A stretch of 43,679 bases of DNA from a virus (IMGVR_UViG_2711768009_000009), one strand, 5' to 3'; positions 8,845 to 43,344 are shown, counted from the stretch's first letter. Numbers and translations are program-made. Notes: a model not told the origin generated them from the sequence alone.

Positions 8845-9411
8845 TCACGGTACTTTTGGTGACGGAGCTGGTGAGGCAGGAAAATAACGATAAAGGGTGG
8901 AAAGGCCAATATCAAATATCAGTGCGATTTGTTTACGGGACTCGCCATTAGCCAGCAAACGGGCGATTTGCTCCCGCTCTTTCTCTGTCAGTTTCTGAGG
9001 TCTGCCGCCATGACGCCCCTGAGCACGGGCAGCAGCAAGACCCGCGCGTGTACGTTCAATAATGAGTTCCCGCTCCATTTCCGCCAGCGCGCCCATTATA
9101 TGGAAAAAGAAACGTCCCATGGGAGTGGATGTATCAATATTGTCCGTAATGCTGCGGAAGTTAACGCCGCGTTGCCGGAGTTCTTCTGTTAAAAGGACAA
9201 GGTGCTGCATACTGCGTCCAAGGCGATCCAGTTTCCAGACCAGCAGGGTATCCCCTGGCCGGAGTCGCTTTAATGCGCGTTTAAGTCCGGGACGCTCCCT
9301 TGTCTTACCGCTTATTCTGTCTTCGAAAAACAGCTCACATCCTGCACATTCCAGCGCATTTCTTTGTAGCGCCGTATTCTGGTCATTTGTTGACACCCTG
9401 ATATACCCAAT
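8845..9411 (-). CDS. gin: Gin/Hin/Pin-family serine DNA invertase (188 resolved codons; start codon lies in the adjacent N-run)
   Basis: IGYIRVSTNDQNTALQRNALECAGCE...VWKLDRLGRSMQHLV...MGRFFFHIMGALAEMERELIIERT... is a near-canonical Gin sequence with the catalytic Ser motif. Confidence 0.9.
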   Translation of the reverse strand: MGYIRVSTNDQNTALQRNALECAGCELFFEDRISGKTRERPGLKRALKRLRPGDTLLVWKLDRLGRSMQHLVLLTEELRQRGVNFRSITDNIDTSTPMGRFFFHIMGALAEMERELIIERTRAGLAAARAQGRHGGRPQKLTEKEREQIARLLANGESRKQIALIFDIGLSTLYRYFPASPAPSPKVP

Positions 9412-9668
9412 NNNNNNNNNNNNNNNNNNNNNNNNNNNNNNNNNNNNNNNNNNNNNNNNNNNNNNNNNNNNNNNNNNNNNNNNNNNNNNNNNNNNNNNNN
9501 NNNNNNNNNNNNNNNNNNNNNNNNNNNNNNNNNNNNNNNNNNNNNNNNNNNNNNNNNNNNNNNNNNNNNNNNNNNNNNNNNNNNNNNNNNNNNNNNNNNN
9601 NNNNNNNNNNNNNNNNNNNNNNNNNNNNNNNNNNNNNNNNNNNNNNNNNNNNNNNNNNNNNNNNNNNN
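9412..9668. other. Unresolved sequence (257 N) at the expected gin-proximal inversion crossover site
   Basis: N-run directly upstream of gin and adjacent to the alternative tail-fibre segment. Confidence 0.9.
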
Positions 9669-9871
9669 CCGCCATAAGACTGGGGTCGGTGACCGCACAT
9701 ATGCCCGGAACATGGGAAAGCTGGGATCTGAATCTGGGGGGCGGCAATGTTCTTACCGGAATTAAAGTACAGGATGTCGGTAAGAATACGGCAGATAACG
9801 TCGGCGGCGTGTATTACCGGCCGTTGCAGTATCTGTTAAATGGAGCATGGGTGACGGCTGCAAGTATATAA
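9669..9871 (+). CDS. Alternative tail-fibre C-terminal segment (S'v-like), 66 resolved codons on the opposite strand; silent in this orientation
   Basis: Post-gap part of ORF 9062..9871; ends ...NVGGVYYRPLQYLLNGAWVTAASI*; convergent with the S/U genes, as expected for the second variable cassette of an invertible segment. Confidence 0.4.
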
Positions 9872-9902: not shown

Positions 9903-10424
9903 TTACTGTGGCTGCTCAGGCCATTTAATGGCGTTAAATTCAGCTTCTGTTTTAATGGCGGGTAGTTCCATTTTCTTCACCTGACTGATGTATGCCATCC
10001 ATTGGGTAAGTGCTGCTCTGTCTTCATCGCTGATGGTGCCCAGTTGTAGCTCCGTTCTCCAGTCATTAATTTTTTCATATGCCTGATTAAGATATGACTG
10101 GCGCATTGCTTCCAGTTTTCTTGCGTAGTTAACCGGAATACGGGAGATTATGCCATTATCAAACTTCCAGTTTCCTGAAATATCCGTGCCTTCAGGGAGT
10201 TCATCGACCTCAACCACAGAAAACCCCGCAGGATACAGCGCCGAGGCGTCCTGTGATATTGAGCAGATAACGCCGCTGTCAGGTGTTATGCAAAGTTTAT
10301 ATTTTTTGGTGAATAATGGCAGGGATTCGTAGAAATCCTTACCATCTTCACTCTGGAAATACTGAACATTATTACCATATGGCATATTTTCAGGATAATA
10401 ACGGGTTATATTTTTTAGTTCCAT
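9903..10424 (-). CDS. Tail fibre assembly protein (Mu U-like), 173 aa
   Basis: ORF track; immediately downstream of the tail fibre gene; GGAGG RBS; size and position as for Mu U. Confidence 0.75.
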   Translation of the reverse strand: MELKNITRYYPENMPYGNNVQYFQSEDGKDFYESLPLFTKKYKLCITPDSGVICSISQDASALYPAGFSVVEVDELPEGTDISGNWKFDNGIISRIPVNYARKLEAMRQSYLNQAYEKINDWRTELQLGTISDEDRAALTQWMAYISQVKKMELPAIKTEAEFNAIKWPEQPQ

Positions 10425-36837: not shown

Positions 36838-37368
36838 TTATTTATTCAGTCCGGCGTCCTGTTCAAAAGGCTCGACATAAAAACTTTCAGCGCCTTTATT
36901 CACCTTGATACCGGCAATGCCTTTCACAGCATCCGGCTCCGCCAGGACGGCTTCCTTGTTCACTTCCTCTTTCGTGCGGATGAAACGCTCAAGCCCCATA
37001 CGGCGCAGCATTTCAATCACACCTTCCACATCACGGCTGACGCTGCATGATGGCGTTCCCAGCCGCCATGACACCGTTCCGGTGGTCAGATTGGCTGTTT
37101 TGGTTTTGCCGCCGTTCGTCAGCTCATCACGGTTGGTTTTGCACCAGTCCTGAATCCCTTTAAAAAGCACTTTGATTTGCTTTTTAAGATTTTCAATCTG
37201 CGGCGTATAACGGGCGGTGATTTCTGCCACTTCGTCATTCATCGCCGTTTCCAGGCGCAGCGCCTCTCGCTGAATATCTCCCAGGGTGCGGATATCACGG
37301 CTGACTTCTTCCCGGGTCTGCGGTGCCGCCTCGGCTGCGGCCTTTAATTTTGTAACGCGTTTAGCCAT
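36838..37368 (-). CDS. gam: Gam-like host-nuclease inhibitor (Ku-like DNA-end binding protein), 176 aa
   Basis: ORF track; ...IRTLGDIQREALRLETAMNDEVAEITARY...CKTNRDELTNGGKTKTANLTTGTVSWR...RFIRTKEEVNKEA... fits the Mu Gam family as recalled. Confidence 0.85.
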   Translation of the reverse strand: MAKRVTKLKAAAEAAPQTREEVSRDIRTLGDIQREALRLETAMNDEVAEITARYTPQIENLKKQIKVLFKGIQDWCKTNRDELTNGGKTKTANLTTGTVSWRLGTPSCSVSRDVEGVIEMLRRMGLERFIRTKEEVNKEAVLAEPDAVKGIAGIKVNKGAESFYVEPFEQDAGLNK

Positions 37369-37379
37369 TTTGTTTTTCC

Positions 37380-37673
37380 TTATTGCAGTGTGCCTGATGC
37401 TTTATGCACGCGGTGGCGTTTAATGATGGCATCCGCTCCAAAAGACTGTGCAGATGCCTGAAATTCCGCTGAGAGAAACTGAATAATTGCAGGACTGTGA
37501 TACTGGAGAATACTTGCATAAACGTCACAGAGTGACGTCGGCCTGTTATCCGTATCACGTTCTGTTTTCACATCCACTCCAATCTTTTCATGCACTTCAA
37601 CACAGTCATTGCCTGCCAACTTTTCGTCATGCGAAACATGATTAAATTCAAAAATAACGCGTACTTTGCTCAT
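37380..37673 (-). CDS. Small early protein, paralog 2 of a tandem pair (97 aa from ATG MSKVRVIFEF)
   Basis: ORF track 37380..37700; N-terminus nearly identical to the upstream gene product. Confidence 0.5.
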   Translation of the reverse strand: MSKVRVIFEFNHVSHDEKLAGNDCVEVHEKIGVDVKTERDTDNRPTSLCDVYASILQYHSPAIIQFLSAEFQASAQSFGADAIIKRHRVHKASGTLQ

Positions 37674-37677
37674 GGAA

Positions 37678-37950
37678 TTACCCCTGTTGATTAAATTCAT
37701 TACCGTTAATAACCCCGGAAGCCATGCCTCTGTCTTTCATGAATGCACTGGCTTTCATTGCCACAAACTCTGCGAAGTTTCTGCTTTCTGCCAGCATAAC
37801 CACCCCAAAAATCATGGCGGGTCCATTATCTTTCTTCTTTATTCCGGTTGAACGTATATCCAGACTTACCCCTCTGTGCGTGCTGCCATCAGAGTTTTTG
37901 CAGATAACATCTTCCTTGTATTCGAAAATAATGCGTACGACTTTACTCAT
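37678..37950 (-). CDS. Small early protein, paralog 1 of a tandem pair (90 aa, MSKVVRIIFEY...)
   Basis: ORF track. Confidence 0.5.
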   Translation of the reverse strand: MSKVVRIIFEYKEDVICKNSDGSTHRGVSLDIRSTGIKKKDNGPAMIFGVVMLAESRNFAEFVAMKASAFMKDRGMASGVINGNEFNQQG

Positions 37951-38228
37951 CCTCTGGTCCTCGTTCTGTTTGGATAACTGACCCGGCGTCTAACCTCACG
38001 GCAGAACCGAATCATGGCATTAAAGGCTTCTTCCTCCGTCACCGCTTCCGGTATCCCCGGAACCAGTAACTGCTCCTGTTCATCACGTCCATGACGCGCC
38101 ATAACCTCAATCACATGCCGTACCGTGGCAGGCTTTCCGGCAACTATCGGCAATGCACCTTCCGGCAGGACGTAACCAAACTCAATAAGACCACTCGACC
38201 ACGCCCATGCAATGAGATTTTTTTTCAC
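37947..38228 (-). CDS. Hypothetical early protein (93 aa)
   Basis: ORF track. Confidence 0.45.
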   Translation of the reverse strand: MKKNLIAWAWSSGLIEFGYVLPEGALPIVAGKPATVRHVIEVMARHGRDEQEQLLVPGIPEAVTEEEAFNAMIRFCREVRRRVSYPNRTRTRG

Positions 38229-38229
38229 C

Positions 38230-38496
38230 TCACACCTCCCAGTAAACCGTGCAGCCGCTGATGCGGGTGGCCTTCACACGGCGGCGCAGGCCGTTGGTCT
38301 GTATGGTGATTTCAATTTCACCGGTTCCCTGCACGTTGCCTACCGGCGGCGTGGTTTTCAGTGCAAAACGTTGCGGATAGCGCTTACTGCGTTCCAGTAC
38401 CGCACCGGCAAGTTCGGTCAGACGGCGCGCGCTGTTCAGGGAGTCGAATAAATTCATTTTGTTACCGCAGGATTGCATATTCATATAACACCTCAT
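38230..38496 (-). CDS. Hypothetical early protein (88 aa; start uncertain)
   Basis: ORF track. Confidence 0.4.
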   Translation of the reverse strand: MRCYMNMQSCGNKMNLFDSLNSARRLTELAGAVLERSKRYPQRFALKTTPPVGNVQGTGEIEITIQTNGLRRRVKATRISGCTVYWEV

Positions 38497-38724
38497 TTAG
38501 CTGACTTGTTTCGCACCAACAGAACGGCATATTCCGCTGTAAACTTCTGTCGCACCTTCGCGATCAAGTCCGGCAGATATCACCATTCGTGTGCGGTCAT
38601 TAAATTCAAAAAGTAAATCGCCACATTCTTTATTTTCGGCCAGTGAAATCACCTTCACGTTATCGAAATTAACCAGGTAAAAGCGTCCGTAAATATCAGG
38701 AATATTAAATACCGCCATAATCAC
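38497..38724 (-). CDS. Small early protein directly after B (75 aa); possibly Kil-like by position and size
   Basis: ORF track; overlaps the B stop by 4 nt; Mu kil occupies this position. Confidence 0.4.
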   Translation of the reverse strand: MIMAVFNIPDIYGRFYLVNFDNVKVISLAENKECGDLLFEFNDRTRMVISAGLDREGATEVYSGICRSVGAKQVS

Positions 38725-39662
38725 ACCTGTGAGAGTAATTCAGGGTTGGTATAAACCTCTTTAAAGGCCGCATTAATATGTTTTTCTGTCAGCGCCGCGC
38801 CTTCACCGCTGGCGGTGAGCCACGCCTGGTTAAGCGTATGTGTCAGAACGCGTAACGCTCCCGGCTTTTCAGCGATAGCCTGCATGACGGCCAGCTCGGC
38901 CTCACCACTGATCCCCCACGCCATGGCAATGGCCAGCACATCCGCCTTTTTGGCCTTGCGAAGTTGTTTTGTACGGGCAAGACGGCTGAACAGGCGCGAT
39001 AAATCATCAAAGGCGCGGCGTCCACCTTTAAACAATCCGCGCGGGTTACCAATAAGCACCATCCCGATCCCCGTGGCGTCCTGAATTGCCCGGAGTTGCT
39101 CCAGACCGTCAATACCAAGATGATCCGCCTCATCCACAATCACCAGTCCACGCGTTCCCATCAGGCGACGGCGGATGGCGCGGGATAATGCCCCTTTGTT
39201 CGCGCGGGTGTAATCAATCCCCAGCGCATCGGCCAGCTCCAGCAGACACTCCGTGACGCTGGAGTGCGCGGGTGACAGGGTGATCATCCAGGTGTTTGGT
39301 TGCTCCTGGCAGTAATTACGGGCAGTGGCCGTTTTACCCACACCCGGTACGCCCACAATAACGTTAATACAGCCCATCAGGCGAACCGCCTGAAACAGTG
39401 CGCGCAGCTCCTGGACTGTCTGAGTTTCCACAAACTGCGGCGGTTCCGGCAGTGCGCTTTGTTTATTCCAGTTCTCATACCAGGAGCGCAGGGAAGCAGC
39501 CACAGCAGCGTTATCGCCTTTATATTTTCCCTTACGGAAAGCCGATAATGTGCCGTCGGAAATTCCCGCCTCTCTGGCGATGGCATACTGCGTCAGTACG
39601 CCGCCATCAATAAGTTCATCAATGGTCTTGATTACATCGTTAATATCGGTCATATTATTCAC
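38721..39662 (-). CDS. Mu B-like transposition ATPase (AAA+), 313 aa, GTG start
   Basis: ORF track; Walker A VGVPGVGKTAT; N-terminal HTH-like region; follows transposase A. Confidence 0.9.
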   Translation of the reverse strand: MNNMTDINDVIKTIDELIDGGVLTQYAIAREAGISDGTLSAFRKGKYKGDNAAVAASLRSWYENWNKQSALPEPPQFVETQTVQELRALFQAVRLMGCINVIVGVPGVGKTATARNYCQEQPNTWMITLSPAHSSVTECLLELADALGIDYTRANKGALSRAIRRRLMGTRGLVIVDEADHLGIDGLEQLRAIQDATGIGMVLIGNPRGLFKGGRRAFDDLSRLFSRLARTKQLRKAKKADVLAIAMAWGISGEAELAVMQAIAEKPGALRVLTHTLNQAWLTASGEGAALTEKHINAAFKEVYTNPELLSQV

Positions 39663-39735: not shown

Positions 39736-41823
39736 TCAGGCCAGCGGATCACTTTCTTTTAATTTCGCTTCGAGCAGTTGCAATCCCCGCTGGAAATTAC
39801 GCTCGTATTCTTCATCAGGTTCATCGTCAGCGACCGGTTGCTGAACGGTCACCGTATTACCCACAGGGCGGTATATGTTTTCCAGCCAGGGCTCCTGCGG
39901 CTTGTGCTCCAGCACGTTGACAACCTCATCCTCGGCATCACGGATTTTTTCCTCTGCGCGTTTACGCATGCCTTTAAGGCGCTGCTGCTGTTTGTAGTAT
40001 TCCGCGCTGACAGGGAAGGCTTCGCGTTTATTGCCGTCCCATACCGCCTCGCAAATCACGCTGCCATCCGGGCGGCGCACGGTAATTCGTTCGGCATCAT
40101 GAATGTCATAGCTGATAAGTACCTTACGGCCATGCTCGTCACGCAGCTCGGGCGCGTAGTAAATATTATTCAGCCAGCGTATTTCACAGCGTCTTACAGG
40201 GCGCTCCACCATCGGCCGGAACATATCCCGCAGTTCAACATCGGACAGCCATTCAATTTCCGTGTCCTCTTCCGCCAGGCGTTTTTTTCTGAACTCCGCC
40301 GGGCTGTAATGTTTACCGTTCGGCTTCATGGGTAATTCATCGTGCGGCCGGTTGTTGTACCACTCAACACCGTCACGAATGGCATCAATCAGTTCAGACC
40401 AGGACGGTAAATCACGCATCGCTGACTGCTGCCGGGCGTTCAGCCGTTTGCCCTGTTGCAGGGCACTGAATGCCGAGCGTAAATCGCGGTTGGTTTTACG
40501 TAACGTCTCGCGATCTGCTCCTTTCCCGAAATAGGTGCGGTATTTACGGGCTATGCGCATCGGTAATGTGCGGTTAAGCCGTTCGATAATGCCCCGTCCC
40601 TGCGGATTACCGGCAATCCCTGTCGGGTGATTAATCCCCAGTCGTGGCAGTATCCCCACAATCTCCTTATCCAGGACGTCGGCGGTTTCCCCGGAGCCAT
40701 TATCCGAGTAATACAGAAACGGTTTGCCATGATGGCGAATACCGTGCTGTATGGCACCGGCTACGGCGAAAACATTTTCAGCCAGGTCAAGGCTCCAGCC
40801 CACCACAAAGCGCGTGCCACCGTCGATAACAAAGGTCACTTCCGGTGCGAATGGCCGCCCGTGAACCGGGTGCGCGCATTTCAGCTTCATGCCGTGACCG
40901 TCACCAATCCAGACATAATTCACCGGCATTCTGGACCAGTCGCGGCGCGTGAATCCCTCAAGCTGACGGTATTCACTGCCAGTTACCCGGCCTTTTTGTT
41001 TCACCACTTCCGGCAGTTTCTTCATTGCGCGGCGAATGGTGTCATAAGAGGGCATGATATCGAGCATATAAGGCTCATCAGCGTGCCGGTGCTGCCATTC
41101 AGCAACAAAATCCTCGTAAGCCTCGGTCATTGGTCGGCCGTTTGACTGGCGATACTGCGCCAGAAATTCGGGCAGCCAGTTAATATCTTCGGCTTTTATT
41201 TCCTGGCGTTTACCCGGTGCCAGTAAAAGCAGGCGTTCAGCGGCGTTCTGTGCCTTGTTAAAGGCCGCAATCCAGCGTTTCAGCGTGATTTCACTCAACG
41301 CGCGGCTGTTTCCCTTTTTGGCGTTCGCCGTCTCAACCATTGCCACAATGCGCTCGTCCAGTTGTGATCGTGCCAGGCTGTTAACGAGGAACCGGATAGC
41401 TTTAGCGCAGCTGAAACCGGGTTGTTGCGTGAATTTCAGCACCTCACTGACGATCGCAATGCGTGCGTCTGCCACCTGGCGCTGGTTTTCAGTCAGGGCA
41501 TTGAGGCGTTCGACCATCAGTTGTGGTGATCCGCGATATGCCTCCACCGCATCAACCACGGCAGACGAGCGTCTGGCCTTTGTCACCACCGGAGCCGGTG
41601 ATTCATCGGCTTTTTGCGTCATCAGTTGCAGGGCATAACGTTCGCGTAATGCCTGCTGTGTCACTTCAGGTAAACAGTCAATGCTGTATTCAAAACCTTT
41701 AGCGCCTTTCTTGCGGCGTCTGCTGGTTTCGCTGGTTGCATACTTCCTGATTGAATAGCGAACGCCTTGCTCCGTTCCCGGCATCCCCGGTAATCCAACC
41801 AGTTCTTTAACTGAAGCAAACAT
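39736..41823 (-). CDS. Mu A-like DDE transposase (695 aa)
   Basis: ORF track; size, position after ner, DDE-core-like region ...YVWIGDGHGMK... Confidence 0.9.
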   Translation of the reverse strand: MFASVKELVGLPGMPGTEQGVRYSIRKYATSETSRRRKKGAKGFEYSIDCLPEVTQQALRERYALQLMTQKADESPAPVVTKARRSSAVVDAVEAYRGSPQLMVERLNALTENQRQVADARIAIVSEVLKFTQQPGFSCAKAIRFLVNSLARSQLDERIVAMVETANAKKGNSRALSEITLKRWIAAFNKAQNAAERLLLLAPGKRQEIKAEDINWLPEFLAQYRQSNGRPMTEAYEDFVAEWQHRHADEPYMLDIMPSYDTIRRAMKKLPEVVKQKGRVTGSEYRQLEGFTRRDWSRMPVNYVWIGDGHGMKLKCAHPVHGRPFAPEVTFVIDGGTRFVVGWSLDLAENVFAVAGAIQHGIRHHGKPFLYYSDNGSGETADVLDKEIVGILPRLGINHPTGIAGNPQGRGIIERLNRTLPMRIARKYRTYFGKGADRETLRKTNRDLRSAFSALQQGKRLNARQQSAMRDLPSWSELIDAIRDGVEWYNNRPHDELPMKPNGKHYSPAEFRKKRLAEEDTEIEWLSDVELRDMFRPMVERPVRRCEIRWLNNIYYAPELRDEHGRKVLISYDIHDAERITVRRPDGSVICEAVWDGNKREAFPVSAEYYKQQQRLKGMRKRAEEKIRDAEDEVVNVLEHKPQEPWLENIYRPVGNTVTVQQPVADDEPDEEYERNFQRGLQLLEAKLKESDPLA

Positions 41824-42861: not shown

Positions 42862-43016
42862 GTATCAAATGAGTTGCCGATTTTATAATAAATGACTAAT
42901 TATTGCACAATCGGTATCAAATAGACCTTATCCGCACATCTAGCCATCACCTGTTTTATTTCAGTATCTTACAGGTGATTTCACCTCCTTTCACTAAACC
43001 CCTTGTCGGTATCAAA
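42862..43016. repeat. Left-end (attL-like) set of three spaced TTTGATAC(CG) repeats (reverse complement on the plus strand), putative transposase binding sites L1-L3
   Basis: GTATCAAA at 42862-42869, CGGTATCAAA at 42912-42921 and 43007-43016; wider spacing than at the right end, as for Mu attL versus attR. Confidence 0.6.
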
Positions 43017-43020
43017 TGAT

Positions 43021-43344
43021 TCACCTGGTTATATGTCGCCAGTCGATACCTTCCAGCAGCATCGCCAGCTGCGCCTGTGTAAGGAACACTTTGCCATCAC
43101 GGGCTGACGGCCAGGCGAAGCGCCCACGCTCCAGCCGTTTGGTCAGGAGGCACAGTCCGTCACTGGTGGACCACAGCAGTTTAACCTGACTGCCGCTGCG
43201 GCCCCGGAAAATGAAAACATGGCCGGACATGGGATCGTCTTTCAGCGCCGTCTGTACTTTCGCAGCCAGGCCGTTGAAGCCATTTCTCATATCGGTGATA
43301 CCGGCAACCAGCCAAATTTTGATCCCGGAAGGTAACGGGATCAT
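43021..43344 (-). CDS. tnpB: IS66-family TnpB (orf2), 107 aa, C-terminus probably altered by the prophage junction
   Basis: ORF track; MIPLPSGIKIWLVAGITDMRNGFNGLAAKVQ...HVFIFRGRSGSQVKLLW...GLCLLTKRLERGRF is a canonical IS66 Orf2 sequence. Confidence 0.85.
   Translation of the reverse strand: MIPLPSGIKIWLVAGITDMRNGFNGLAAKVQTALKDDPMSGHVFIFRGRSGSQVKLLWSTSDGLCLLTKRLERGRFAWPSARDGKVFLTQAQLAMLLEGIDWRHITR

What the first reader, a model, noticed from the sequence alone, without database searches (positions are those of the whole stretch)
37380..37950. Tandem pair of divergent paralogous small early genes next to gam
Two adjacent genes encode 90- and 97-aa proteins that both start MSKV(V)R(I)IFE(Y/F), with similar start-codon DNA, then diverge. 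Tandem duplication and divergence of small early genes is typical of host-takeover or counter-defence loci.
Basis: seen in the sequence. Interest (0 to 1): 0.45.

Follow-up and report, generated by a model that had tools for sequence, protein, structure and literature searches.

The report
Two Gnarl2-like early genes beside gam
Two neighbouring small early genes of an E. coli Mu-like prophage are real, very distant relatives of each other and of phage Mu gene E6 (Gnarl2), a small protein reported to alter the host O-antigen, so the pair is a modest extension of a known kind.

Summary
On the minus strand, 37678-37950 encodes a 90-aa protein (w90) and 37380-37673 a 97-aa protein (w97). Both start MSKV(V)R(I/V)IFE(Y/F) and lie between a 93-aa gene and gam in the early operon of a Mu-like prophage.

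Similarity extends past the N-terminus. Pairwise BLASTP gives 22% identity (E 6e-4). Family profiles align over 64-75 columns (hhalign E 1e-5 to 1e-6). With the first 12-13 residues removed they still align in register (P 0.005; 2 of 300 shuffles). Unrelated neighbour families and reversed profiles give E 0.02-0.66.

The two belong to separate PHROG families of unknown function (4107 and 2230). They are as far from each other (16-18% identity) as from Mu gp7/E6. Mu gp7-type proteins hit phrog_2230 over their full length (library-wide E 5.6e-5 to 0.035). Mu gp7 is Gnarl2 (Silas et al.), which shifts O-antigen bands and sensitises wild E. coli to T5.

Related prophages carry one copy of this superfamily. 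The two-copy arrangement is fixed in one E. coli lineage (232 of 5,426 complete genomes). Both genes are under purifying selection (pN/pS 0.35 and 0.41).

Verdict: ancient paralogues and new members of the Gnarl2 kind. Function is inferred, not shown. Interest is modest.

The parts
37678..37950 (-). w90: 90-aa CDS, phrog_4107, the Gnarl2-superfamily paralogue found only in the E. coli lineage
   Evidence: ORF. phrog_4107 at E 1.7e-54. RefSeq CDS WP_000049428.1. Homologues occur almost only in E. coli, the most distant at 57% identity. pN/pS 0.35. GAGGA Shine-Dalgarno 7 nt upstream of the ATG.
37380..37673 (-). w97: 97-aa CDS, phrog_2230, the conserved member immediately upstream of gam
   Evidence: ORF with internal MSKV start. 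phrog_2230 at E 1.8e-38. RefSeq CDS WP_000049310.1. Distant relatives at 25-30% identity all start MSN(K/E)xQV(I/L)FTFE or a close variant. pN/pS 0.41.
37947..37950 (-). ATGA overlap: the stop codon of the upstream 93-aa gene overlaps the start codon of w90 (translational coupling)
   Evidence: Read directly from the sequence and ORF coordinates.
37674..37677 (-). 4-nt spacer between the w90 stop and the w97 start, showing tight operon packing
   Evidence: No promoter-like or terminator-like site on the minus strand between 36800 and 39000; the only minus-strand site in the scan is promoter-like, at 36740-36711, downstream of gam.
37947..38228 (-). Context: 93-aa gene (phrog_1518), the usual upstream neighbour of w97-type genes
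36838..37368 (-). Context: gam (Mu Gam, host-nuclease inhibitor), starting 11 nt downstream of w97
   Evidence: PF07352 at E 5.5e-42.
38230..38496 (-). Context: kil-like gene, the upstream edge of the variable kil-to-gam module
   Evidence: phrog_2679 at E 7.8e-46.

Best explanation
w90 and w97 are two anciently diverged paralogues of one superfamily of small, non-enzymatic early proteins of Mu-like transposable phages. The characterised member of that superfamily is Mu E6/gp7, also called Gnarl2.

Both genes are co-transcribed and translationally coupled within the early operon (A, B, kil ... gam), so both would be made immediately on induction or infection. Each is predicted to fold as a long two-stranded beta-hairpin followed by a long alpha-helix.

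By analogy with Gnarl2, they most likely act stoichiometrically by binding host proteins. The most likely consequence is disturbed O-antigen/LPS assembly, which would mask receptors or exclude superinfecting phages. The two diverged copies would recognise different host targets or variants.

Shown here: the genes are real and under purifying selection; they are homologous to each other; the w97 family is remotely homologous to the Gnarl2 family; the pair is fixed in one E. coli prophage lineage.

Inferred: early expression, binding of a host protein, and the O-antigen target. I put the O-antigen sub-claim alone at about 0.35.
For: Homology of w90 and w97: BLASTP E 6e-4. hhalign E 1.2e-5 to 1.1e-6 over 64-75 columns. 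Still in register after trimming the N-terminus (P 0.005; 2 of 300 shuffles). Controls were clean.

Shared predicted topology: w90 has strands at 3-18 and 24-38 and a helix at 54-73. w97 has strands at 4-19 and 25-39 and helices at 48-57 and 61-77.

Link to Gnarl2: Mu gp7 hits phrog_2230, the w97 family, as its only family besides its own among 38,880 at E <= 0.1. The hit is E 0.009 and covers residues 1-78 against profile positions 1-80 of 89. Two gp7-family members hit the same profile at E 5.6e-5 (1-81 against 1-83) and E 0.035 (1-61 against 1-65). A merged w90+w97 profile aligns with the gp7 family at E 6e-4 over 73 collinear columns, and 0 of 150 shuffles reached that score. The w90 profile against the gp7 family gives E 0.004.

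The authors' own AlphaFold model of Gnarl2 (pLDDT 67-97 over residues 1-67) has a hairpin at 1-15/20-32 followed by a helix from 38 to at least 67.

Gnarl2 is NP_050611.1, Mu 4784..5047. Expressing it downshifts O-antigen bands in ECOR1 and ECOR22 and raises T5 infection 1e5- to 1e6-fold (PMC12373910; doi 10.1101/2023.04.06.535777).

Same genomic slot: the kil-to-gam module of the early region in Mu, in the window and in relatives.

Real genes: pN/pS 0.35 and 0.41; Shine-Dalgarno sequences and an ATGA overlap; identical or near-identical pair in 232 of 5,426 complete E. coli genomes.
Against: Identity to Gnarl2 is only 19-20% for the window's two proteins, and BLASTP finds no alignment. hhalign of the gp7 family against the w97 family alone is not significant (E 0.22).

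My AlphaFold models have low confidence (pLDDT 54 and 57). Foldseek against viral models found nothing with E <= 0.001, and Mu gp7 was not among the 50 best matches shown for either model.

The molecular target of Gnarl2 itself is unknown; affinity-purification mass spectrometry showed no clear pattern. Function often changes at this level of divergence.

w90 and w97 were not in the published screen library.

The two proteins differ in charge (pI 9.2 against 6.3), which is compatible with quite different partners.
Confidence: 0.5

Rival explanations
1. The two are true paralogues of the Gnarl2 superfamily but have a different job. They might inhibit an intracellular defence system, or act as an accessory factor for transposition, replication or DNA-end handling alongside Gam. 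In this reading the O-antigen phenotype is specific to Mu gp7.
For: A w97-type gene always sits directly upstream of gam or, in relatives, of a DUF3164 gene that occupies the gam slot. Its upstream partner belongs to phrog_1518, labelled 'host nuclease inhibitor'. In one relative, a Lar-like restriction-alleviation ORF sits in the neighbouring slot, though it scores below the Pfam threshold. Divergence from gp7 is extreme.
Against: No sequence or fold match to any known anti-defence, DNA-binding or nuclease-inhibitor family in Pfam, NCBIfam or PDB sequences. The only characterised relative has an envelope phenotype.
Confidence: 0.3
2. The pair is a recent in-situ tandem duplication that diverged fast under an arms race. 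This is the strict version of the first reader's interpretation.
For: The genes are adjacent, in the same orientation and of similar length, with near-identical N-terminal codons. Within w90, the hairpin tip (codons 16-30) and the C-terminus have pN/pS of about 1. w90 is only about 80% identical between prophages whose neighbouring genes are 99-100% identical.
Against: The two are no closer to each other (16-18% identity) than either is to Mu gp7 (19-20%). Overall pN/pS is 0.35-0.41, which is purifying. Codon identity at the N-terminus is explained by amino-acid conservation (P 0.09). No DNA similarity is detectable outside the first 31 nt. Single-copy relatives have the w97 type only, and no intermediate forms were found.
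Confidence: 0.12
3. The resemblance is a chance or convergent N-terminal motif, for example a favoured translation-initiation region or a generic first beta-strand, and the genes are unrelated.
For: Most of the pairwise score comes from the first 11 residues. After removing them the pairwise test is only P of about 0.04. PHROGs keeps the two in separate families.
Against: Profile comparisons align 64-75 columns collinearly at E 1e-5 to 1e-6. The trimmed profiles still align in register (2 of 300 shuffles). Unrelated neighbour families and reversed profiles give E >= 0.024. The predicted secondary-structure order is the same. Synonymous variation at the w90 N-terminus is high (pS 0.28), which argues against a nucleotide-level constraint.
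Confidence: 0.06
4. One or both ORFs are non-functional remnants.
For: Frameshifted or fused variants exist in some genomes. P0052, P0061 and P0063 are w97 N-termini that continue in another reading frame. In locus L033 w97 is disrupted. P0030 is a w90-w97 deletion fusion.
Against: The intact pair is present in all 30 complete loci of this type examined (31 in all, one of them cut by a contig end) and in 226 complete genomes at 80% coverage or more. pN/pS is well below 1. Ribosome-binding sites and coupled starts are intact.
Confidence: 0.02

Closest known systems
Gnarl2 = phage Mu E6 / gp7 / Mup07 (NP_050611.1; phrog_10252); Silas et al., bioRxiv 10.1101/2023.04.06.535777 and Nat Commun 2025 (PMC12373910)
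   Same: Small size (87 aa against 90 and 97). Encoded in the kil-to-gam module of the early region of a Mu-type transposable phage. N-terminus M-[AS]-K-V-x-[IV]-I. Predicted long beta-hairpin followed by a long helix. Remote but significant profile-level homology. No enzymatic domain.
   Different: Only 19-20% identity to the window's two proteins, with no BLASTP alignment. Mu has one copy, separated from gam by gp8 and gp9; here there are two copies directly upstream of gam. The O-antigen and T5-sensitisation phenotype has been shown only for Mu gp7.
phrog_2230 (unknown function): w97-type proteins of enterobacterial Mu-like prophages, for example in Citrobacter braakii ATCC 51113
   Same: w97 is a clear member (E 1.8e-38). 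The slot is the same: after the phrog_1518 gene and before gam or DUF3164. Length (93-98 aa) and N-terminal motif also match.
   Different: The relatives are single-copy and only 25-30% identical. They end in a conserved C-terminal His, as Mu gp7 does, whereas E. coli w97 ends in TLQ.
phrog_4107 (unknown function)
   Same: w90 is a near-consensus member (E 1.7e-54).
   Different: The family is very narrow: E. coli Mu-like prophages only, with the most distant member at 57% identity. It had not been linked to phrog_2230 or to Gnarl2.
Gnarl1 and Gnarl3 (small accessory proteins of lytic phages; Gnarl3 binds GalU)
   Same: Same functional label in the literature: small, stand-alone phage proteins that alter O-antigen.
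   Different: I found no statement or evidence that they are related in sequence. I did not compare their sequences with w90 or w97. The grouping is by phenotype, not by family.
Iap of Pseudomonas phage D3 (small inhibitor of the O-antigen polymerase)
   Same: A precedent for a small phage protein that blocks an O-antigen assembly enzyme. It is mentioned in PMC12373910.
   Different: Not compared here. According to that paper, it works together with phage-encoded seroconverting enzymes.

Membership tests
Gnarl2 / Mu E6 (gp7) superfamily | Detectable sequence homology to Mu gp7 (NP_050611.1): w97 | tested here: met
   Mu gp7 and two family members hit phrog_2230, the w97 family, at library-wide E 0.009, 5.6e-5 and 0.035, the first two over nearly full length. 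Direct BLASTP finds nothing. hhalign of the two small alignments alone gives E 0.22. Homology is therefore remote and rests on the broader PHROG profile.
Gnarl2 / Mu E6 (gp7) superfamily | Detectable sequence homology to Mu gp7: w90 | tested here: inconclusive
   The gp7 family against the w90 family gives hhalign E 0.004 over 46 columns. A merged w90+w97 profile against gp7 gives E 6e-4 over 73 columns, with 0 of 150 shuffles reaching that score. BLASTP finds nothing. Membership rests mainly on transitivity through w97.
Gnarl2 / Mu E6 (gp7) superfamily | Fold: long beta-hairpin followed by a long alpha-helix | tested here: inconclusive
   My models of w90 and w97 show the same order of elements but have pLDDT of 54 and 57. 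The published Gnarl2 model shows a hairpin at 1-15/20-32 and a helix from 38 to at least 67. No superposition was possible. Foldseek found nothing with E <= 0.001, and Mu gp7 was not among the 50 best matches shown.
Gnarl2 / Mu E6 (gp7) superfamily | Small (40-90 aa) stand-alone protein with no enzymatic domain | tested here: met
   90 and 97 aa. No Pfam, NCBIfam or meaningful PDB-sequence match.
Gnarl2 / Mu E6 (gp7) superfamily | Encoded in the accessory (semi-essential) early region of a Mu-type phage, between kil and gam | tested here: met
   Gene order A, B, 75-aa ORF, kil, 93-aa ORF, w90, w97, gam. In Mu the order is kil, gp6, gp7, gp8, gp9, gam.
Gnarl2 / Mu E6 (gp7) superfamily | Phenotype: O-antigen band shift and sensitisation of wild E. 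coli to non-kin phages such as T5 | not testable with these tools
   Reported for Mu gp7 only. w90 and w97 were not in the screened library.
phrog_4107 / phrog_2230 | Full-length match to the family profile | tested here: met
   w90 matches phrog_4107 at E 1.7e-54 (1-90 of 90). w97 matches phrog_2230 at E 1.8e-38 (3-97 against 1-88 of 89).
Recent tandem duplicate | The two copies are closer to each other than to single-copy relatives elsewhere | tested here: not met
   w90 to w97 is 16-18% identity. w90 to gp7-type is 19-23%. w97 to single-copy Citrobacter-type relatives is 24-30%.

The most novel reading that the evidence does not exclude
The two diverged Gnarl2-like proteins work as a pair. 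Either they form a heterodimer through their beta-hairpins, or they are two specificities aimed at different host envelope-biosynthesis targets. In the second case this E. coli prophage lineage would carry a two-component, enzyme-free seroconversion or receptor-masking module tuned to the diversity of E. coli O-antigens. The hairpin tip of w90, which varies most between otherwise identical prophages, would be the specificity determinant.
Probability: 0.12. Interest if true: 0.55.

Novelty: new member of a known kind. Interest (0 to 1): 0.3.

Why it matters
The result ties two PHROG families of unknown function (4107 and 2230) to Gnarl2. These families cover hypothetical proteins in about 4% of complete E. 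coli genomes and in Citrobacter and other enterobacterial Mu-like prophages. Gnarl2 is one of very few small phage proteins known to remodel the O-antigen without an enzyme.

If the function is shared, enzyme-free seroconversion would be a general property of the Mu-like early region, not a peculiarity of Mu. The naturally diverged trio (gp7, w90, w97) would then be a useful comparative set for finding the still-unknown host target of Gnarl2 and the residues that determine its specificity.

If the function is not shared, the pair is simply one more set of uncharacterised accessory genes.

Tried and rejected
1. Pfam, NCBIfam and PDB-sequence searches with sequences and profiles gave nothing. 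The only hit below 0.001, an AI-designed TIM barrel, is a spurious helical match.

2. AlphaFold2 on the shallow family alignments gave low confidence (pLDDT 54 and 57). Foldseek of both models against BFVD found no match with E <= 0.001, and Mu gp7 was not among the 50 best matches shown for either model. I drew no fold-based conclusion beyond the order of secondary-structure elements.

3. tblastn of both proteins against 50,697 phage records found only two Stx-phage records that carry an inserted Mu-like element.

4. An exhaustive HMMER search of 1.84 billion representatives with the w97 profile found only 11 proteins, so the family is small.

5. Direct BLASTP, and hhalign of single sequences against Mu gp7, found nothing. 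The link appears only with broader profiles.

6. I tested whether the similar 5' DNA reflects gene conversion or a nucleotide-level signal. It does not: P = 0.09 for codon identity, and pS is high at the w90 N-terminus.

7. Rfam found no RNA family in the window. There is no promoter-like or terminator-like site on the minus strand between 36800 and 39000.

8. I tried to find the prophage ends using Mu attL and attR sequences recalled from memory. There were no matches, so the ends were not mapped.

9. A literature search by protein accession or PHROG number returned no papers.

Full report
**What is there.** The window holds a Mu-like prophage on the minus strand. Its early region reads: transposase A (39736-41823), B (38721-39662), a 75-aa ORF, a kil-like gene (38230-38496), a 93-aa gene (37947-38228, phrog_1518), the two genes of the finding, gam (36838-37368, PF07352 at E 5.5e-42), then gp11-like and gp12-like genes and a SANT/Myb protein. 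The finding's genes are w90 (37678-37950, 90 aa) and w97 (37380-37673, 97 aa).

RefSeq annotates exactly these CDSs as hypothetical proteins in identical DNA of E. coli JE86-ST05. The w90 ATG overlaps the stop codon of the 93-aa gene (ATGA). Four nucleotides separate w90 from w97, and 11 separate w97 from gam. Both genes have Shine-Dalgarno sequences. No promoter-like or terminator-like site lies on that strand between 36800 and 39000. They are therefore part of one tightly packed operon. By analogy with Mu this is the early transcript; that step is inferred.

**Is the resemblance real?** The N-termini are MSKVVRIIFEY and MSKV-RVIFEF. BLASTP gives 22% identity over 76 residues (E 6e-4). In shuffling tests, 1 of 5000 shuffles reached the observed full-length score. 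Without the first 11-12 residues, 203 of 5000 did, with the alignment in the same register.

I built family alignments. A1 (w90) holds 23 sequences, all from E. coli, the most distant at 57% identity. A2 and A3 (w97) include five distant members at 25-30% identity, found by an exhaustive HMMER search of 1.84 billion representatives. All five begin MSN(K/E)xQV(I/L)FTFE or a close variant.

Profile-profile comparison gives E 1.2e-5 to 1.1e-6 over 64-75 collinear columns. After deleting the first 12-13 residues from both profiles, they still align in the same register (P 0.005). Column shuffling reached the observed score in 0 of 300 trials for the full profiles and 2 of 300 for the trimmed ones.

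Twenty control comparisons with unrelated neighbouring families (the 75-aa ORF, kil, the 93-aa gene, gam, gp11) gave E 0.024-0.66. Reversed profiles gave E 0.4-0.65.

The conserved features beyond the N-terminus are the second strand (GVSLDIRSTGI against GISVRVRSQGL), a G-P turn, an [FY]-[GA]-x-[IV]-[LM] helix start, and a Gly near position 75-80.

The similar start-region DNA (28 of 31 nt) needs no separate explanation. Codon identity at conserved residues is 5 of 7 (P 0.09), and synonymous variation at the w90 N-terminus is high.

**Are they functional genes?** Among 31 IMG/VR loci of this prophage type, all 30 that are complete at that point show the order 93-aa gene, w90, w97, gam; the remaining one (L003) starts inside w90. 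The 571-bp region occurs in 232 of 5,426 complete E. coli genomes, and in 226 of them at 80% coverage or more.

Pooled pN/pS is 0.35 for w90 and 0.41 for w97. For comparison, B is 0.05, gam 0.11, and the other small neighbours 0.15-0.28. Selection is therefore purifying but relaxed. Local values near 1 occur at the w90 hairpin tip (codons 16-30) and C-terminus.

w90 is also the local hot spot of divergence. It is about 80% identical between prophages whose kil, 93-aa and gam genes are 99-100% identical.

Occasional frameshifted w97 variants exist, as does one w90-w97 deletion fusion at a shared FG dipeptide. Loss is therefore tolerated.

**What are they related to?** Pfam, NCBIfam and PDB sequences give nothing. 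PHROGs places w90 in phrog_4107 and w97 in phrog_2230, both of unknown function.

Mu gp7 (E6, 87 aa, MAKVIIEIKN...) caught my eye, and direct BLASTP to it failed. However, gp7 hits phrog_2230 as its only family besides its own among 38,880 at E <= 0.1 (E 0.009, residues 1-78 against profile 1-80 of 89). Two other gp7-family proteins hit the same profile: one at E 5.6e-5 over its full length (1-81 against 1-83), the other at E 0.035 over residues 1-61.

A merged w90+w97 profile aligns with the gp7 family at E 6e-4 over 73 collinear columns, and 0 of 150 shuffles reached that score. w90 alone against gp7 gives E 0.004. w97 alone against gp7 is not significant.

The three clades are roughly equidistant, at 9-23% identity between clades.

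**Structure.** My AlphaFold2 models are poor (pLDDT 54 and 57), but they agree on a long beta-hairpin followed by a helix: w90 has strands at 3-18 and 24-38 and a helix at 54-73; w97 has strands at 4-19 and 25-39 and helices at 48-57 and 61-77. The published AlphaFold model of Mu gp7 is supplementary file 7 of doi 10.1101/2023.04.06.535777. I read the C-alpha atoms of residues 1-67 (pLDDT 67-97). It shows an antiparallel hairpin at 1-15/20-32 and a helix from 38 to at least 67. This agreement is supporting evidence only, because no superposition was possible.

**What the known relative does.** Mu gp7 (NP_050611.1, Mu 4784..5047) is orf63, or gnarl2, of Silas et al.. Expressing it in wild E. 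coli ECOR1 and ECOR22 downshifts the O-antigen ladder and raises T5 infection 1e5- to 1e6-fold. The authors propose that Gnarl proteins, being too small to be enzymes, perturb host O-antigen enzymes. This could serve superinfection exclusion or stop progeny from binding cell debris. Its direct target is unknown (PMC12373910). No other paper in the library mentions gnarl2, and w90 and w97 were not in the screened library.

**Copy number in relatives.** True Mu-type prophages have one copy, in the order kil, gp6, gp7, gp8, gp9, gam. Citrobacter braakii and eight IMG/VR relatives have one w97-type copy, usually after the 93-aa gene. It is followed by a DUF3164 gene plus a DUF5420 gene in place of gam in the locus checked (L034), by similar 211-214-aa ORFs in seven others, and by gam in one. 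Only the E. coli lineage of the window has two copies, and the extra one is w90.

Because w90 is no closer to w97 than to gp7, the pair is not a recent tandem duplicate. It is either an old duplication or the product of recombination between Mu-like phages that carried different members.

**Mechanism and confidence.** My best explanation (confidence 0.5) is as follows. The pair are two ancient paralogues of the Gnarl2 superfamily, made early, acting by binding host proteins. The most likely effect is on O-antigen/LPS assembly (about 0.35 for that step alone), with the two copies covering different targets or variants.

The main rival (0.3) keeps the paralogy but assigns another host-takeover or anti-defence target.

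Smaller rivals are recent duplication under an arms race (0.12), chance resemblance (0.06), and dead genes (0.02).

**Verdict.** The pair are new members of a known kind. Interest is modest (0.3). The useful outcome is the link from two unknown-function PHROG families to Gnarl2, together with a natural two-copy arrangement that could help find Gnarl2's target.

Noticed in passing
window 3802-4260 (-) and 43021-43344 (-): The Mu-like prophage is flanked by pieces of an IS66-family element. On one side is a C-terminal fragment of the DDE transposase (profile positions 195-283 plus the C-terminal element). On the other is an intact TnpB/Orf2. Most of the transposase N-terminus seems to be missing, so the insertion may have been accompanied by a deletion or rearrangement. 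Repeated TTTGATACCG-like motifs sit near both junctions (about 4366-4430 and 42862-43018).
   Followed up: partly
window 299-2014 (+): A 571-aa protein with a type III secretion LRR domain and a C-terminal NEL E3 ubiquitin ligase domain (IpaH/SspH-type effector) lies just outside the prophage. Next to it are tail-fibre fragments of another phage (2194-3748).
   Followed up: no
window 6705-8759 (-): The 684-aa tail-fibre-region protein of this Mu-like prophage carries a SASA/SGNH carbohydrate acetylesterase domain and DUF6645. This suggests the phage recognises or deacetylates a surface polysaccharide (O-antigen or capsule). That would fit a prophage that also carries Gnarl2-like genes.
   Followed up: no
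window 4479-5411 (-): The Mom-family protein is 310 aa as the ORF is called. The Pfam Mom domain starts only at residue 96. Either the true start is internal or there is an N-terminal extension.
   Followed up: no
window 8845-9747 (-) and 9903-10424 (-): A Gin-type serine invertase lies next to a tail-fibre assembly gene, in a layout like the Mu G segment. The ORF as called is 300 aa, but the resolvase domain starts at residue 113, so the real start is probably internal.
   Followed up: no
window 37678-37950; loci L012, L013, L016-L027, L029, L033: w90 exists in two main allele types, about 80% identical in protein sequence. They are embedded in prophages whose kil, 93-aa and gam genes are 99-100% identical. 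This is a local mosaic or hot spot. The differences cluster at the hairpin tip (residues 14-26) and at residues 58-83.
   Followed up: partly
proteins P0030, P0052, P0061, P0063; locus L033 about 2997-3290: Natural disruptions of the pair occur. One is a w90(1-49)-w97(C-terminal 18 aa) deletion fusion at a shared FG dipeptide. Several are w97 frameshift variants that read into the alternative frame 37361-37558 (-). The genes are therefore dispensable in some lysogens.
   Followed up: partly
loci L034-L039, L041, L042 (about 4300-5610): In Citrobacter-type relatives the gam slot appears to be taken by other genes. In L034 these are a DUF3164 gene (212 aa) and a DUF5420 gene (about 210 aa), confirmed by Pfam. 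The other seven loci have no gam match and carry similar 211-214-aa ORFs in the same place, which I did not scan. L038 also carries an extra 182-aa ORF in the same slot. Gam and DUF3164 look like alternative cassettes downstream of the w97-type gene.
   Followed up: partly
window 37947-38228 (-): The 93-aa upstream neighbour belongs to phrog_1518, labelled 'host nuclease inhibitor'. It has no Pfam or NCBIfam match. It is replaced or truncated in some E. coli variants, where only its last 22 residues match (for example L011, L023, L024). The label looks unverified.
   Followed up: no
locus L040 3645-4004 (+): In one distant relative, the slot upstream of the w97-type gene holds a 119-aa ORF with a weak Lar (restriction alleviation) zinc-ribbon match (E 4.6e-4, below the Pfam threshold).
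   Followed up: no
alignment (P0066, P0068-P0071, Mu gp7, P0079): The distant w97-type proteins and the Mu gp7 family both end in a conserved C-terminal histidine (...IH and ...CH). E. coli w97 (...TLQ) and w90 (...QQG) do not.
   Followed up: no
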